Positions 1,891 to 25,058 of a DNA stretch of 25,058 bases are shown here, piece after piece. The DNA comes from a virus (taxonomy: Duplodnaviria > Heunggongvirae > Uroviricota > Caudoviricetes): the IMG/VR virus record IMGVR_UViG_2698536646_000002; one strand, 5' to 3'. The notes under the pieces were generated by a model, which was given only the letters and a program-made list of their open reading frames with translations, searched no databases and was not told the DNA's origin. The position numbers were made by a program, and so were the translations under genes. Positions within the stretch are counted from its first letter, which is position 1; each line of letters starts with the position of its first letter.

Positions 1891-5805
<3,915 letters not shown>

Positions 5806-20542: not shown

Positions 20543-20554
20543 TGTGGGGTGAAT

Positions 20555-23500
20555 ATGGCAGTAAAGATTTCAGGTGTACTGAAAGACGGCACAGGAAAAC
20601 CGGTACAGAACTGCACAATCCAGCTGAAAGCAAAACGTAACAGCACCACGGTGGTGGTGAACACGCTGGCCTCAGAAAATCCGGATGAAGCCGGGCGTTA
20701 CAGCATGGACGTTGAGTACGGTCAGTACAGCGTTATTCTGTTGGTGGAAGGATTCCCGCCGTCACATGCCGGGACCATCACCGTGTATGAAGATTCCCGA
20801 CCCGGTACGCTGAATGATTTTCTCGGTGCCATGACGGAGGATGATGCCCGTCCGGAGGCACTGCGCCGTTTTGAGCTGATGGTGGAAGAGGTGGCGCGTA
20901 ACGCGTCCGCGGTGGCACAGAACACGGCAGCCGCGAAGAAATCAGCCAGCGATGCCAGCACATCAGCCCGTGAGGCGGCAACCCATGCGACTGATGCTGC
21001 AGATTCAGCACGTGCAGCCAGCACGTCAGCCGGACAGGCCGCTTCGTCGGCTCAGTCAGCGTCTTCCAGCGCAGGAACGGCATCAACAAAGGCCACTGAA
21101 GCCTCAAAAAGTGCTGCCGCTGCAGAGTCCTCAAAAAGCGCGGCGGCTACCAGTGCCGGTGCGGCGAAAACGTTAGAAACGAATGCGGCAGCGTCACAAC
21201 AATCAGCAGCCACTTCTGCATCCACCGCGACCACGAAAGCGTCAGAAGCTGCCACCTCAGCCCGGGATGCGTCGGCTTCAAAAGAGGCGGCAAAATCATC
21301 AGAAACGAACGCATCATCAAGCGCCAGTAGCGCAGCTTCCTCGGCGACGGCGGCTGCAAATTCTGCGAAGGCGGCCAAAACGTCCGAGACGAACGCCAGG
21401 TCTTCTGAAACGGCAGCGGGACAGAGTGCCTCAGCTGCGGCAGGCTCAAAAACAGCGGCTGCGTCGTCTGCCAGCGCCGCGTCAACAAGTGCCGGGCAGG
21501 CCTCAGCCAGTGCCACCGCCGCCGGAAAATCGGCAGAAAGCGCCGCATCATCCGCTTCAACAGCCACAACGAAGGCTGGCGAAGCCACTGAGCAGGCCAC
21601 GGCAGCAGCGAGGTCAGCTTCCGCAGCGAAGACATCCGAAACGAACGCGAAAGCGTCGGAAACCCGTGCAGAATCCTCAAAAACGGCTGCCGCATCGTCC
21701 GCCAGTTCGGCGGCGTCATCGGCATCATCGGCGTCTGCTTCAAAAGATGAGGCGACCAGACAGGCGTCAGCAGCGAAGGGCAGCGCCACGACGGCATCCA
21801 CGAAGGCGACAGAGGCTGCTGGTAGTGCGACGGCAGCAGCTCAGAGCAAAAGTACGGCGGAATCTGCAGCAACGCGCGCTGAGACAGCGGCAAAACGGGC
21901 AGAGGATATTGCATCCGCCGTGGCGCTTGAGGATGCGAGCACGACGAAAAAGGGGATAGTACAGCTCAGTAGTGCGACTAACAGCACTTCCGAGTCACTG
22001 GCGGCAACACCAAAAGCCGTTAAGGCCGCGTATGACCTGGCTAACGGGAAATACACCGCACAGGATGCAACGACAGCACAGAAAGGGATAATCCAGCTAA
22101 GCAGCGCGACCAACAGCACGTCTGAAACGCTGGCGGCAACGCCAAAGGCAGTAAAAGCAGCCAATGACAATGCTGAGAAACGTCTGCAGAAAGATCAGAA
22201 CGGTGCGGATATCCCTGGCAAAGACACCTTTACGAAAAATATTGGTGCCTGCCGTGCCTTCGGTGGGTCAGTAAGCACAACAACAGGAAACTGGACGACT
22301 GCACAGTTTATCGAGTGGCTGGATTCTCAGGGAGCATTTAACCATCCATACTGGATGTGCAAGGGTTCCTGGTCTTATGGCAATAATAAAATCATTACTG
22401 ATACTGGCTGCGGTAATATTCATCTCGCCGGAGCTGTCATTGAAGTAATGGGGATAAAGTCAGCGATGACGATCCGCATTACCACTCCGACCACATCCAG
22501 CGGTGGCGGAACAACCAACGCCCAGTTTACCTATATTAATCACGGAACAGATTATTCACCTGGCTGGCGAAGGGACTATAACTCCAGAAATAAGCCAACG
22601 GCATCAGAGATCGGGGCGCTACCGTCAGGTGGAACAGCAGTATCATCAGTTAATCTGGCTTCAAAAGGTCGGGTAGCCGCGCTGACAGACAATACGCAGG
22701 GGGCAGCAGGTCTTGAGTTATACGAGGTGTATAACAACGGATATCCAACAGCGTATGGAAATATCATTCACCTGAAAGGGATGACAGCCGTTGGCGAAGG
22801 TGAGTTACTCATCGGCTGGAGTGGTACAAGCGGTGCTCATGCTCCGGCATTTATTCGTTCACGACGGGATACGACCGACGCAAACTGGTCGCCGTGGGCG
22901 CAGCTTTACACCTCGGCTCATCCTCCTGCAGAGTTTTATCCAGTCGGTGCACCAATCCCGTGGCCATCAGATACCGTTCCGTCTGGTTATGCCCTGATGC
23001 AGGGGCAGACTTTTGACAAATCTGCTTACCCGAAACTTGCAGCCGCTTATCCGTCAGGCGTGATCCCTGATATGCGTGGCTGGACGATTAAGGGCAAGCC
23101 CGCCAGTGGTCGTGCCGTATTGTCTCAGGAACAGGATGGCATTAAATCGCACACCCACAGCGCCAGCGCATCCAGTACGGATTTGGGGACGAAAACCACA
23201 TCGTCGTTTGATTACGGCACTAAATCCACGAATAACACCGGGGCGCATACGCACAGTCTGAGCGGCTCTACAAGTTCAGCTGGGGCCCACCAACATAGTC
23301 AGACTGGGCCCAGAACGAATAGCGGGAGTCAACCTACTGGAATGTTTCCGGCAGGGAGTACTCAAGTTAGCGGGACTAATCAGGTTGGTATCAGTGGCTC
23401 ATTAACCAGTGGCACCTCCCAATGGGTAGGTAAATCATCTTCAGAAGGAAACCATACACACTCACTGTCCGGCACAGCAGCATCTGCGGGTGCACACGCG

Positions 23501-23638
23501 CATACTGTCGGTATTGGTGCTCATACGCACTCTGTTGCGATTGGTTCACATGGACACACCATCACCGTTAACGCTGCTGGTAACGCGGAAAACACCGTCA
23601 AAAACATCGCATTTAACTATATTGTGAGGCTCGCATAA
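20555..23638 (+). CDS. stf: Side tail fiber protein Stf (intact, Ur-lambda type) with expanded Ala/Ser-rich repeat region and His-box C-terminus
   Basis: ATG at 20555 gives [36 protein letters not shown]..., matching the lambda Stf N-terminus. It contains a long low-complexity Ala/Ser/Thr region with recurring K(T/S)SETNA units and two tandem KGI(V/I)[11 protein letters not shown](S/T)[11 protein letters not shown] repeats. The C-terminus has repeated (G/S)(A/S)H(T/A)H(S/T) motifs and ends ...[18 protein letters not shown], like lambda Stf as recalled. 1027 aa. Confidence 0.9.
21950..22162 (+). repeat. Diverged tandem repeat (two 81-nt units, period 132 nt) inside stf encoding the tail-fiber repeat motif
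   Basis: Units at 21950-22030 and 22082-22162 encode [26 protein letters not shown] and [26 protein letters not shown]. Confidence 0.8.
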
Positions 23639-24219
23639 TGGCATTCAGAATGAGTGAACAAGCACGGACCATAAAAATTTATAACCTGCTGGCCGGAACT
23701 AATGAATTTATTGGTGAAGGTGACGCATATATTCCGCCTCATACAGGTCTGCCTGCAAACAGTACCGATATTGCACCGCCAGATATTCCGGCTGGTTTCG
23801 TGGCTGTTTTCAACAGTGATGAGTCATCGTGGCATCTCGTTGAAGATCATCGGGGTAAAACGGTTTATGACGTGGCTTCCGGCGACGCGTTATTTATTTC
23901 TGAACTCGGCTCATTACCGGAAAATGTCACCTGGTTATCCCCGGAAGGGGAGTTTCAGAAGTGGAACGGCACAGCCTGGGTGAAGGATACGGAAGCAGAA
24001 AAACTGTTCCGGATCCGGGAGGCGGAAGAAACAAAAAACAGCCTGATGCAGGTAGCCAGTGAGCATATAGCGCCGCTTCAGGATGCTGTGGATCTGGAGA
24101 TCGCAACGGAGAAAGAAACCTTGTTGCTGGAAGCTTGGAAAAAGTATCGGGTGTTGCTGAACCGTGTTGATACATCAACTGCACCGGATATTGAATGGCC
24201 AGTAGCACCTATAGGGTAA
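23638..24219 (+). CDS. tfa: Tail fiber assembly protein Tfa
   Basis: 193 aa, [37 protein letters not shown]... Matches lambda Tfa. ATG overlaps the stf stop (TAATG). Confidence 0.93.
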
Positions 24220-24298
24220 ATTCGTAATGATTACCTAAATACGTTATTCTTTTGTTAAAAAAGTGATTTTGCTATAGGTAGGGAGTATGTTCTTGGAT

Positions 24299-24336
24299 TA
24301 AGAATAAAAAATCGCCATGAAAGAGCTTCATGGCGA
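24299..24336 (-). terminator. Candidate rho-independent terminator for a leftward (minus-strand) transcript
   Basis: Perfect 10-bp inverted repeat 24312-24321 / 24327-24336 (TCGCCATGAA ... TTCATGGCGA) with a 5-nt loop. On the minus strand it is followed by TTTTTTATTCTT (plus-strand A-run 24299-24311). Confidence 0.5.
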
Positions 24337-24968
24337 GTACATAAACGTACAAAATGTGATGAAAGTAGAGTGGCGTAAGCCACTATATTAAGATATGACA
24401 ATAGCGAAGAAAAGTAAATAACATTTTATGGACGTTTAATTGTTAATTATAAAAACTAGAGTGCCCGATATTGTTTATCTTGCTTTAAAATAATGTACTC
24501 AAACCAAATTTTTGAGCTAAAAGCTCAAATAATATAAATGCAATAATAATGTTTAATAAGACAATTAGCTTGCTTTGTATTTTCATTTCGGAATACTGTT
24601 AAGTAACTTTGATGACCCTAACAATAGATCGGAATTTTCTTAGAGTCAATGGTCACTGTTTTTGCTTGCAAAGCAAATGTTTTGGTGGTTATAAGTCGTC
24701 TTAATATAGTCACGCATGCAACTTGTTCCATGCGGAGATTAAAGATTGGAATATAACGCGAAGATGGAATTAAATTACATTTGCAATAATTAATTTATTA
24801 TTACTCAATAATTACCGATATTATTATTGTAAATTAATCATTAGAATGCAAAAAGAAATGTAACGGCAAAATAAGAGGACGATAGCTGAGAAAAAAGCGT
24901 GCTTTCCCAATCTGGGGCAAATCACGTCTGAATGACACCTGAAAACAGGTGGTAGCCTCAAGAAGGCT

Positions 24969-25058
24969 GGTGATGCTGCCAACTTACTGATTTAGTGTAT
25001 GATGGTGTTTTTGAGGTGCTCCAGTGGCTTCTGTTTCTATCAGCTGTCCCTCCTGTTC
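24969..25058 (+). mobile_element. IS1 insertion sequence, left end (partial; continues beyond window)
   Basis: GGTGATGCTGCCAACTTACTGATTTAGTGTATGATGGTGTTTTTGAGGTGCTCCAGTGGCTTCTGTTTCTATCAGCTGTCCCTCCTGTTC is the IS1 terminal inverted repeat and insA leader/5' end as I recall it. Confidence 0.9.
25024..25058 (+). CDS. insA: IS1 InsA (transposition repressor), 5' fragment truncated by window end
   Basis: GTG GCT TCT GTT TCT ATC AGC TGT CCC TCC TGT translates to (M)ASVSISCPSC, the InsA N-terminus. Confidence 0.8.
   Translation, partial: MASVSISCPSC

What the first reader, a model, noticed from the sequence alone, without database searches (positions are those of the whole stretch)
24220..24968. 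AT-rich orphan region between tfa and an IS1 insertion, with no ORF of 60 aa or more
Immediately after tfa the sequence becomes strongly AT-rich for about 750 bp and contains no ORF of 60 aa or more on either strand. This position corresponds to the lambda b region, a known site of accessory cargo in lambdoid prophages. The stretch carries a well-formed hairpin-plus-T-run that reads as a minus-strand terminator (24299-24336), several short inverted repeats (24507-24528, 24663-24677, 24927-24942), and ends abruptly at the IS1 left end. It may be the decayed or IS-truncated remnant of a cargo locus, or may carry small RNAs or micro-ORFs rather than conventional genes. I could not assign any function.
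Basis: partly seen in the sequence, partly recalled or inferred. Interest (0 to 1): 0.5.

Follow-up and report, generated by a model that had tools for sequence, protein, structure and literature searches.

The report
Unannotated YncL-like small-protein gene after tfa
The "empty" AT-rich stretch after the phage tail-fibre assembly gene holds an unannotated, conserved 33-codon gene for a small membrane protein related to E. coli YncL, with its own predicted promoter and terminator; the rest is mosaic spacer cut off by IS1.

Summary
Window 24220-24968 is 31.5% G+C, has no ORF of 60 aa or more, carries a strong minus-strand terminator, and ends at the IS1 left end. The lack of long ORFs is what chance gives: 76% of shuffles show the same.

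The region is a three-part mosaic, not junk.

- Module A (24220-24797) always follows tfa and occurs in 831 of 5426 complete E. coli genomes and in three cultured lambdoid phages. It holds a leftward unit: promoter-like TTGACT-17-TATTGT (24649-24621), a 33-codon ORF (24586-24485), a ~180-nt 3' region and the terminator (24336-24303).
- The peptide MKIQSKLIVLLNIIIAFILFELLAQKFGLSTLF matches the YncL family (NCBIfam E 1.3e-5; 0 of 20000 shuffles score as well). It is under purifying selection (pN/pS 0.16) and intact in all 113 copies sampled, yet almost never annotated.
- A unique linker spans 24798-24883.
- 24884-24968 is the outer end of a fossil attachment-site arm from a phage that integrated at serU.

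The best reading is a moron (an add-on phage gene with its own promoter and terminator) encoding a YncL-like inner-membrane peptide. Expression and function are inferred, not shown. This is a new member of a known kind, of modest interest.

The parts
23638..24219 (+). tfa (tail fibre assembly gene), left neighbour. Homology to lambda tfa (orf-194) stops at about 24200-24202, 17 nt before the stop codon.
   Evidence: ORF list; RefSeq annotation of relatives; about 50 phages including lambda match only up to query position 563-565.
24220..24797 (.). Module A, a mobile AT-rich block that always lies directly after tfa. Its right-hand neighbours vary: an AraC/YdeO-like regulator, sitABCD or ydfJ.
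   Evidence: Found in 831 of 5426 complete E. coli genomes, on chromosomes only; contexts; also in phages mEp332, ev099 and PhiR70_1.
24621..24649 (-). Predicted sigma-70-type promoter, TTGACT (24649-24644), 17-nt spacer, TATTGT (24626-24621). The predicted start is near 24613, about 27 nt before the ATG.
   Evidence: Consensus scan. Across the 112 copies with enough upstream sequence, the -35 is kept in all but 2, the -10 is TATTGT or TATCGT, and the spacing never changes. Prediction only.
24485..24586 (-). 33-codon ORF plus stop, MKIQSKLIVLLNIIIAFILFELLAQKFGLSTLF. It is a YncL-like single-pass membrane peptide with hydrophobic core residues 7-24 and a K-F-G motif at 26-28. There is no clear Shine-Dalgarno sequence (ttccgaaATG).
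   Evidence: NCBIfam YncL NF000537: E 1.3e-5, 25 bits. BLASTP to K-12 YncL: 39% identity over 28 aa, E 2e-7. Smith-Waterman score 60 against 20.2 +/- 4.1 in shuffles, 0 of 20000 as high. pN/pS 0.16, the lowest of six frames, with no indels. Intact in 113 of 113 copies.
24298..24395 (-). Most conserved block of module A: hairpin 24384-24369, a 34-nt invariant linker, the terminator hairpin and the U tract. Read as the structured 3' end of the ORF transcript; it may also yield a 3'-derived small RNA.
   Evidence: 91% identity with no gaps between the two deep lineages, against 63-64% with indels in both flanks. Folding z = -6.8. One-sided changes keep pairs only on the minus strand. Found in 827 genomes, matching module A's 831, and always at 90% identity or more. 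Covariation is not significant.
24303..24336 (-). Intrinsic terminator: stem TCGCCATGAA / TTCATGGCGA (24336-24312), then UUUUUUAUU (24311-24303).
24798..24883 (.). AT-rich linker found only in the prophage and phage group that carries the AraC/YdeO-like regulator. No conserved ORF or notable structure.
   Evidence: Homology breakpoints at query positions 578 and 665; folding z-scores near 0.
24884..24968 (.). First 85 bp of module B, the outer end of the phage-side arm of a fossil attR. In intact alleles it runs on to a 62-nt serU (tRNA-Ser) 3' fragment and 278 bp of E. coli DNA from beside serU.
   Evidence: The same block ends lambdoid prophages at serU/zinT (L008) and near uspF (L007). Positions 860-1199 of the intact intergenic region are 97% identical to K-12 serU and its flank.
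24969..25058 (+). Left end (insA-proximal inverted repeat) of IS1, running off the window.
   Evidence: Identical to the annotated IS1A copy in L002.

Best explanation
Module A (24220-24797) is a moron: an AT-rich, self-contained, leftward transcription unit inserted at the 3' end of tfa in a lambda-like phage. A sigma-70-type promoter (24649-24621) is predicted to drive a roughly 310-nt transcript. That transcript encodes a 33-residue single-pass inner-membrane peptide distantly related to the E. coli stress protein YncL (24586-24485) and ends at the strong intrinsic terminator (24336-24303) after a conserved, structured 3' untranslated region. By analogy with YncL, which depolarises the inner membrane when produced, the peptide probably inserts into the lysogen's inner membrane and changes its membrane state. 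By analogy with the HK97 gp15 moron, a captured YebO homologue, that change may serve stress tolerance or exclusion of other phages. The remaining DNA is non-coding mosaic. It consists of a unique linker (24798-24883) and the outer 85 bp of a fossil attachment-site arm from a phage that integrated at serU (24884-24968), cut by an IS1. In relatives, that IS1 has deleted 551 or about 741 bp to its right. Shown here: the anatomy, the distribution, the conservation pattern and the YncL similarity. Inferred: transcription, translation, membrane location and any phenotype.
For: The YncL similarity is specific. NCBIfam NF000537 is the only hit for both alleles (E 1.3e-5 and 3.7e-5), while the reversed sequence and four shuffled versions hit nothing. 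BLASTP to K-12 YncL gives 11 of 28 identities, E 2e-7. None of 20000 composition-preserving shuffles reaches the alignment score, and twelve other small membrane peptides score 18-35 against 60. The ORF shows coding-type constraint. Against the 82%-identical lineage there are 11 synonymous and 7 non-synonymous changes, pN/pS 0.16, the lowest of six frames. A second lineage shows 4 synonymous to 1 non-synonymous. The ORF has no indels although both flanks do, and it is intact in 113 of 113 sampled copies with 7 DNA alleles. Other ORFs in the region are broken in relatives or change only non-synonymously. The promoter hexamers and their spacing are conserved, and the terminator is strong and conserved. 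Moron features are present. G+C is 25-34% against 43-65% next door. There is a sharp boundary to lambda-type tfa at about 24200, and about 50 related phages lack the block. The block also sits beside different cargo in different prophages. YncL production depolarises the membrane and condenses the nucleoid (PMC12542507). HK97 gp15 is a precedent for a phage moron derived from a host small membrane protein (PMC3594210).
Against: The YncL score (25 and 23.5 bits) is below NCBI's curated cut-off of 35, so this is not a YncL equivalog. No Shine-Dalgarno sequence precedes the ATG, whereas K-12 yncL has aaggtgg. There are no expression, ribosome-profiling or proteomic data. An ORF of 33 codons occurs by chance in 95% of shuffles, so the case rests on conservation and homology. 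Only two deep lineages exist, so pN/pS rests on about 23 substitutions. Mosaic recombination can mimic block-wise conservation: L006 shares its 24701-24790 variant with the divergent lineage. No relative was found outside E. coli. A rare frameshift allele exists.
Confidence: 0.68

Rival explanations
1. The main functional product is a small regulatory RNA. The conserved block 24298-24395(-) is released from the 3' end of the transcript or made from a weak internal promoter (TTTACT-17-TATCTT, 24418-24390). It would act as an Hfq-type base-pairing RNA on host or phage mRNAs. The ORF would be secondary, or the RNA would have two functions.
For: This is the most conserved part of module A: 91% against 63-64% in the flanks, and never below 90% in 827 genomes. 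It has the hairpin, U-rich single-stranded linker, terminator hairpin and U-tract layout, with folding z = -6.8. G-U-compatible one-sided changes fit only the minus strand. Salmonella yncL was first catalogued as the small RNA STnc1110 (PMC5437024).
Against: There is no Rfam family. The best matches are MicC at 22.8 bits (gathering 90) and Esr41 at 15.6 bits (gathering 102), both with E above 1. Covariation is not significant: 62 of 500 shuffles reach the observed value, and only one pair has a double change. The internal promoter matches only 8 of 12 positions and was not reported by the scan. The block never occurs apart from the ORF. No target was found inside the window. A conserved terminator and 3' stabiliser would explain the same data.
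Confidence: 0.15
2. A type I toxin-antitoxin locus: the hydrophobic peptide is a membrane toxin held in check by an antisense or trans-acting small RNA encoded in the same block.
For: The peptide is small, hydrophobic and single-pass. YncL overproduction lowers viability and membrane potential. The locus has a long, structured untranslated region and a weak ribosome-binding site, and it sits in a prophage.
Against: No antisense promoter was found above chance: 5 promoter-like sites against 4.1 expected. The mRNA 5' end and the 3' element show no unusual complementarity: -14.0 kcal/mol against -14.8 +/- 3.3 in shuffles. There is no match to known toxin families in Pfam or NCBIfam or in PADLOC. 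YncL itself is not known to have an antitoxin.
Confidence: 0.08
3. Inert AT-rich spacer: recombination scars and decayed cargo with no expressed product. The ORF and the conserved blocks would reflect recent shared ancestry.
For: Most copies are 95% identical or more. Phage mosaicism produces block-wise identity differences. ORFs of this size are expected by chance. Annotation pipelines call nothing here.
Against: The divergent lineage keeps the frame open with mostly synonymous change, while the flanks take indels. The YncL similarity is far beyond composition. Promoter and terminator flank the ORF in the correct order and strand and are conserved.
Confidence: 0.07
4. A long, H-NS-silenced upstream control region of the AraC/YdeO-like regulator gene that lies about 1.5 kb downstream of tfa in intact alleles.
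For: In intact alleles the whole 1505 bp between tfa and that gene is non-coding and AT-rich. The regulator resembles YdeO and GadX.
Against: Module A also occurs with sitABCD or ydfJ downstream and no such regulator. A serU fragment and host DNA lie between it and the regulator. IS1 alleles delete the intervening DNA.
Confidence: 0.03

Closest known systems
YncL, the E. coli K-12 31-aa stress-response inner-membrane protein (NCBIfam NF000537; b4598)
   Same: Same size class and layout: Met, polar N-terminus with Ser5 and Lys/Arg6, a hydrophobic helix with Asn12, Ala16 and Leu19-Phe20, then a basic residue followed by Phe-Gly at 26-28. Identity is 39% over 28 residues. It is a short monocistronic unit with its own terminator.
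   Different: It scores 25 bits against the family cut-off of 35 (K-12 YncL scores 68.6). It sits in a phage b region, not between patD and ortT. There is no DNA similarity and no Shine-Dalgarno sequence. Its 3' untranslated region is about 150 nt longer, and the C-terminal tail differs (LSTLF against WFI).
HK97 gp15 moron, a YebO-family small membrane protein that mediates superinfection exclusion
   Same: A lambdoid-phage add-on with its own promoter and terminator and a deviant G+C content. It encodes a small inner-membrane protein whose closest relatives are chromosomal enterobacterial small proteins.
   Different: It belongs to a different protein family, lies in a different genome position (inside the tail operon, not after tfa) and is a larger protein. 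Exclusion activity is shown for gp15 and is only a hypothesis here.
Lambda lom and bor, the classic lysogenic-conversion genes of the late and b regions
   Same: They lie in the same part of the genome and follow the same logic: accessory genes expressed from the prophage independently of late transcription.
   Different: lom and bor encode outer-membrane or lipoprotein products of about 100-200 aa and are annotated. This unit is a 33-codon gene on the opposite strand and is missed by annotation.
Type I toxins (Hok, Ldr, TisB, ZorO and similar)
   Same: Small hydrophobic membrane peptides, often in prophages, with structured untranslated regions.
   Different: No sequence similarity and no antitoxin RNA were found.

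Membership tests
YncL family (NCBIfam NF000537, equivalog) | Whole-protein HMM score at or above the curated cut-off of 35 bits | tested here: not met
   25.0 bits for the window allele and 23.5 bits for the divergent allele; K-12 YncL scores 68.6 bits.
YncL family (homology in the broad sense) | Statistically significant full-length similarity that composition does not explain | tested here: met
   HMM E-values 1.3e-5 and 3.7e-5 with no other family hit; the reversed sequence and four shuffled versions give no hit. BLASTP E 2e-7. None of 20000 shuffles reaches the score.
YncL family | About 30-aa peptide with one transmembrane helix and a C-terminal basic-Phe-Gly motif | tested here: met
   33 aa; hydropathy peak over residues 7-24; K26-F27-G28 aligns with R26-F27-G28 of YncL.
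YncL family | Conserved chromosomal locus between patD and ortT | tested here: not met
   K-12 yncL lies between patD and ortT. This gene lies after tfa in prophages and phages.
YncL family | Inner-membrane location and membrane depolarisation on production | not testable with these tools
   Known for YncL (PMC12542507); needs experiment here.
Moron (Juhala/Hendrix sense) | Own terminator | tested here: met
   10-11-bp G+C-containing stem plus U tract at 24336-24303(-), conserved.
Moron | Own promoter | tested here: inconclusive
   TTGACT-17-TATTGT is conserved in position and spacing. It is a consensus match only, and promoter-like sites in the region are at chance frequency.
Moron | Base composition unlike the neighbouring phage genes | tested here: met
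   G+C 25-34% against 43-65%.
Moron | Present in some but absent from otherwise closely related phages, with sharp boundaries | tested here: met
   Lambda and about 50 other phages share tfa at about 94-95% identity only up to about 24200 and lack the block. The block is joined to at least three different right-hand contexts.
Moron | Expressed from the repressed prophage | not testable with these tools
   No transcript data available.
Type I toxin-antitoxin | A cognate antisense or complementary antitoxin RNA | tested here: not met
   No above-chance antisense promoter and no unusual complementarity.
Rfam small RNA families (MicC RF00121, Esr41 RF02676) | Covariance-model score at or above the gathering threshold | tested here: not met
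   22.8 bits against 90 and 15.6 bits against 102; both E-values above 1.
IS1 | Terminal inverted repeat and adjoining sequence identical to an annotated IS1 | tested here: met
   90 of 90 nt identical to the IS1A copy in L002.
IS1 simple insertion | Target-site duplication of about 9 bp | tested here: not met
   Relatives with the same left junction have two different right flanks, with 551 or about 741 bp missing. No complete E. coli genome has the junction expected from a simple insertion. The window itself ends inside IS1.

The most novel reading that the evidence does not exclude
The unit is a dual-function prophage RNA. It would serve as mRNA for a membrane-depolarising YncL-like peptide, and its nearly invariant 3' end would be released as an Hfq-binding small RNA that reprogrammes host gene expression in lysogens or takes part in defence against other phages. 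That would make it a widespread regulator, present in about 15% of E. coli genomes, that no annotation lists.
Probability: 0.12. Interest if true: 0.55.

Novelty: new member of a known kind. Interest (0 to 1): 0.35.

Why it matters
About one complete E. coli genome in seven, and at least three cultured temperate phages, carry this unit, yet annotation pipelines list no gene there. The exact peptide appears only twice, unnamed, among about 15 billion predicted proteins. It shows that prophage 'orphan' spacers can hide genes for small membrane proteins, as the moron literature predicted. It also offers a natural paralogue for working out what YncL-type peptides do: membrane depolarisation, stress dormancy or phage exclusion. 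The finding does not open a new class of system.

Tried and rejected
- tblastn against the phage collection found nothing, not even in phages known to carry the gene, so that negative is uninformative.
- Pfam, PHROGs and PADLOC gave no family.
- Rfam gave nothing near threshold in the window or in the intact allele, apart from IS009 inside tfa and tRNA-like hits on the serU fragment.
- Searches for more distant relatives turned up only the same two lineages. These covered species-representative genomes, viral contigs, metagenomes and 1.84 billion protein representatives. So neither a deeper pN/pS estimate nor a covariation test was possible.
- Covariation counting on 19 distinct 3'-end variants was not significant.
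- Fold-back or antisense pairing between the 5' and 3' ends of the transcript was no better than in shuffles.
- Three other ORFs were rejected. The 37-aa and 48-aa minus-strand ORFs are broken in relatives, and the 24-aa plus-strand ORF at 24317-24391 changes only non-synonymously.
- The 55-aa ORF annotated in ev099 across 24834-25001 lies in the attachment-arm block and was not pursued.
- A sliding-window folding scan found nothing notable outside 24260-24400.
- The IS1 target duplication could not be defined.

Full report
**1. The observation**

Window 24220-24968 follows the stop codon of tfa (23638-24219). Its G+C is 31.5%, against 43-65% in stf and tfa.

No ORF of 60 aa or more lies in it on either strand. 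The longest are 52 aa, running into IS1, and 48 aa. For DNA this AT-rich that is unremarkable: 76% of 1000 shuffles also lack such an ORF, and 95% contain an ORF of at least 33 codons.

The minus-strand terminator is real. Its stem is TCGCCATGAA/TTCATGGCGA at 24336-24312, followed by TTTTTTATT. The scan found two terminator-like sites against 0.4 expected. The segment 24298-24440(-) folds with z = -6.8.

From 24969 the sequence is identical to the first 90 nt of an annotated IS1A copy at the same junction in another strain.

**2. Where the region sits**

The stretch is 99% identical to DNA in many E. coli chromosomes. It also occurs in three cultured lambdoid phages: mEp332, ev099 and PhiR70_1.

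In prophages at the lambda site next to ybhB and the bio genes (bioA, bioB), the order is J, lom, stf, tfa, then 1505 bp without annotation. After that come an AraC-family regulator most like YdeO and GadX, IS fragments, and the host gene ybhB. In the free phage ev099, int and xis follow the IS fragments.

**3. The region is a mosaic**

Homology breakpoints divide it into three parts.

- **Module A, 24220-24797.** It is present in 831 of 5426 complete E. coli genomes, always directly after tfa. Its right-hand neighbours differ: the AraC-like cargo, the sitABCD transporter, or the chromosomal gene ydfJ at the end of a decayed prophage.
- **Its left edge is a classic mosaic junction.** Lambda and about 50 other phages share tfa at about 94-95% identity only as far as window position about 24200. 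That is 17 nt before the stop codon, and those phages lack the block. In several prophages a displaced tfa 3' fragment lies to the right of module A.
- **Linker, 24798-24883.** It is confined to the group carrying the AraC-like gene.
- **Module B, from 24884.** The same sequence ends other lambdoid prophages, for example one at serU beside zinT in an ST131 strain.
- **What module B runs into.** In the intact allele it continues into 62 nt of the 3' end of tRNA-Ser gene serU and 278 bp of E. coli DNA from beside serU. That stretch is 97% identical to K-12.
- **What module B is.** It is therefore a fossil right-hand attachment junction of a phage that integrated at serU, now carried as passenger DNA. 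The window holds only its outer 85 bp.

**4. What module A contains**

On the minus strand there is an ordered unit:

- a sigma-70-like promoter, TTGACT-17-TATTGT, at 24649-24621;
- a 33-codon ORF at 24586-24485;
- about 150 nt of untranslated RNA;
- the terminator at 24336-24303.

The peptide is MKIQSKLIVLLNIIIAFILFELLAQKFGLSTLF. Pfam does not recognise it. NCBIfam gives one hit, the small stress-response membrane protein YncL, at E 1.3e-5 and 25 bits, below the curated cut-off of 35.

I tested whether this is a composition artefact.

- The divergent allele also hits only YncL (E 3.7e-5).
- The reversed sequence and four shuffled versions hit nothing.
- K-12 YncL itself scores 68.6 bits.
- BLASTP to K-12 YncL gives 11 of 28 identities and 18 of 28 positives, E 2e-7.
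- None of 20000 shuffles reaches the Smith-Waterman score of 60 (mean 20.2, sd 4.1).
- Twelve other small membrane peptides, whose sequences I wrote from memory, score 18-35.

The aligned positions are Ser5, a basic residue at 6, Val9-Leu10, Asn12, Ala16, Leu19-Phe20, Leu22 and basic-Phe-Gly at 26-28.

I conclude that the peptide is a distant YncL homologue, a paralogue rather than the YncL equivalog.

**5. Is the ORF a gene?**

Two deep lineages of module A exist, about 72-80% identical overall.

- Between them the ORF differs at 18 of 102 nt. These are 11 synonymous and 7 non-synonymous changes, all conservative: V9I, I15F, F17L, E21K and S30Y.
- pN/pS is 0.16, the lowest of the six reading frames.
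- A third lineage shows 4 synonymous to 1 non-synonymous change.
- The ORF, its 5' leader and the promoter have no indels, whereas the flanking blocks do.
- All 113 copies in the fetched genomic, viral and metagenomic loci are intact, with 7 DNA alleles and 4 protein variants. One frameshifted form turned up only in the protein library.
- The -35 hexamer is unchanged in all but two of the 112 copies that include the upstream region. The -10 is TATTGT or TATCGT, and the spacing never varies.

The other ORFs of the region behave differently. They are interrupted in relatives, or, for the 24-codon plus-strand ORF inside the terminator, they change only non-synonymously.

Points against a gene:

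- no Shine-Dalgarno sequence precedes the ATG, whereas K-12 yncL has one;
- the substitution count is small;
- recombination between lineages is evident in the 24701-24790 block;
- there are no expression data.

**6. The 3' block**

The stretch 24298-24395 is the best-conserved part of module A. It is 91% identical between the deep lineages, against 63-64% on either side. It never falls below 90% in 827 genomes.

It contains a 6-bp hairpin (24384-24369), a 34-nt invariant linker and the terminator. Two one-sided substitutions keep base pairs as G-U only if the minus strand is the RNA.

A long-range stem with 24418-24427 shows one G-C, G-U, A-U series. Overall, however, covariation is not significant: 62 of 500 shuffles reach the observed value.

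No Rfam family fits. MicC scores 22.8 bits against a threshold of 90, and Esr41 scores 15.6 bits against 102. The block is never found apart from the ORF. It shows no unusual pairing with the 5' end of the mRNA or with anything else in the window.

I read it as the structured 3' end of the ORF transcript. A 3'-derived small RNA remains possible. It is notable that Salmonella yncL was first catalogued as the small RNA STnc1110 (PMC5437024).

**7. How it most likely works**

The unit has the features that define a moron:

- it has its own terminator and a plausible promoter;
- its composition differs from its neighbours;
- it is present in some related phages and absent from others, with sharp edges (definition in PMC3594210).

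[quoted passage not shown] YncL rises on heat shock, in minimal medium and in stationary phase (PMC12542507).

HK97 gp15 is a precedent. It is a moron derived from the host small membrane protein YebO, and it blocks DNA entry by superinfecting phages.

I therefore propose that the lysogen makes this peptide independently of late phage transcription, which runs the opposite way. The peptide would insert in the inner membrane and modulate membrane energetics. The benefit would be stress tolerance or exclusion of other phages. The anatomy and the homology are shown; every functional step is inference.

**8. The IS1**

Nineteen fetched loci share exactly the window's left junction. Their right flanks differ.

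- In one class 551 bp are missing.
- In another about 741 bp are missing, which leaves IS1 15 bp before the start codon of the AraC-like gene.
- No complete E. coli genome has the junction expected from a simple insertion with a 9-bp duplication.

This pattern fits one ancestral insertion followed by IS1-mediated adjacent deletions. The window ends inside IS1, so its own right flank is unknown.

**9. Novelty and verdict**

No RefSeq feature lies under the match. The exact peptide occurs only twice, unnamed, among about 15 billion predicted proteins. It has no PHROG or PADLOC family. In the searches I could run, no paper that mentions YncL describes a phage copy.

It is a new member of two known kinds, YncL-type small membrane proteins and phage morons. 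It is not a new kind of system. Interest is modest.

Noticed in passing
window 23981-24179 (+): Rfam family IS009 (RF02111) matches at 218 bits, far above its threshold of 117. The match lies entirely inside the tfa coding sequence, so this 'RNA family' may simply be conserved tfa coding DNA.
   Followed up: no
L001 6860-7199 (intact allele; lies beyond the IS1 in the window): The b region of free phages mEp332, ev099 and PhiR70_1 carries 62 nt of the serU tRNA-Ser 3' end plus 278 bp of E. coli chromosome from beside serU, 97% identical to K-12. This is a fossil attR, picked up either by aberrant excision or by recombination with a prophage integrated at serU.
   Followed up: yes
L002 6750-7517; L023 and L071 (IS1 right flanks): The same IS1 left junction is paired with nested right-hand deletions of 551 bp and about 741 bp. 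The larger deletion puts the IS1 end 15 bp upstream of the start codon of the AraC/YdeO-like regulator, which could change that gene's expression.
   Followed up: partly
L001 7506-8249: The cargo gene downstream of the region in intact alleles is a 247-aa AraC-family regulator. It is most similar to the acid-resistance regulators YdeO (149 bits, below the cut-off) and GadX, and recalls prophage regulators such as AppY.
   Followed up: partly
window about 24200-24202; L006 about 5580-5620; L009 4546-4645; L010 3587-3686: The mosaic junction with lambda-type tfa lies 17 nt inside the 3' end of tfa. In several prophages a second, displaced tfa 3' fragment lies right of module A, as if the block entered by recombination within tfa.
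   Followed up: partly
window 24701-24790: This second well-conserved, indel-free block (87% between lineages) lies upstream of the predicted promoter. It has no conserved ORF or notable structure. Its variant pattern shows recombination between lineages, and it could be a regulator-binding region.
   Followed up: partly
window 24621-24630 (-): A C stands directly upstream of the -10 hexamer (tCTATTGT, or tCTATCGT in the divergent lineage). From my own knowledge, that feature is associated with sigma-S-dependent promoters. Salmonella yncL expression requires sigma-S (PMC5437024).
   Followed up: no
window 20549-23638: The side tail fibre gene (1029 aa) has a long Ala/Ser/Thr-rich low-complexity stretch with 58-65% G+C. 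This contrasts sharply with the 25-34% G+C of the region studied.
   Followed up: no
P0003 (protein library): A rare frameshift allele of the small ORF (43 aa, altered after residue 26) exists in public data.
   Followed up: no
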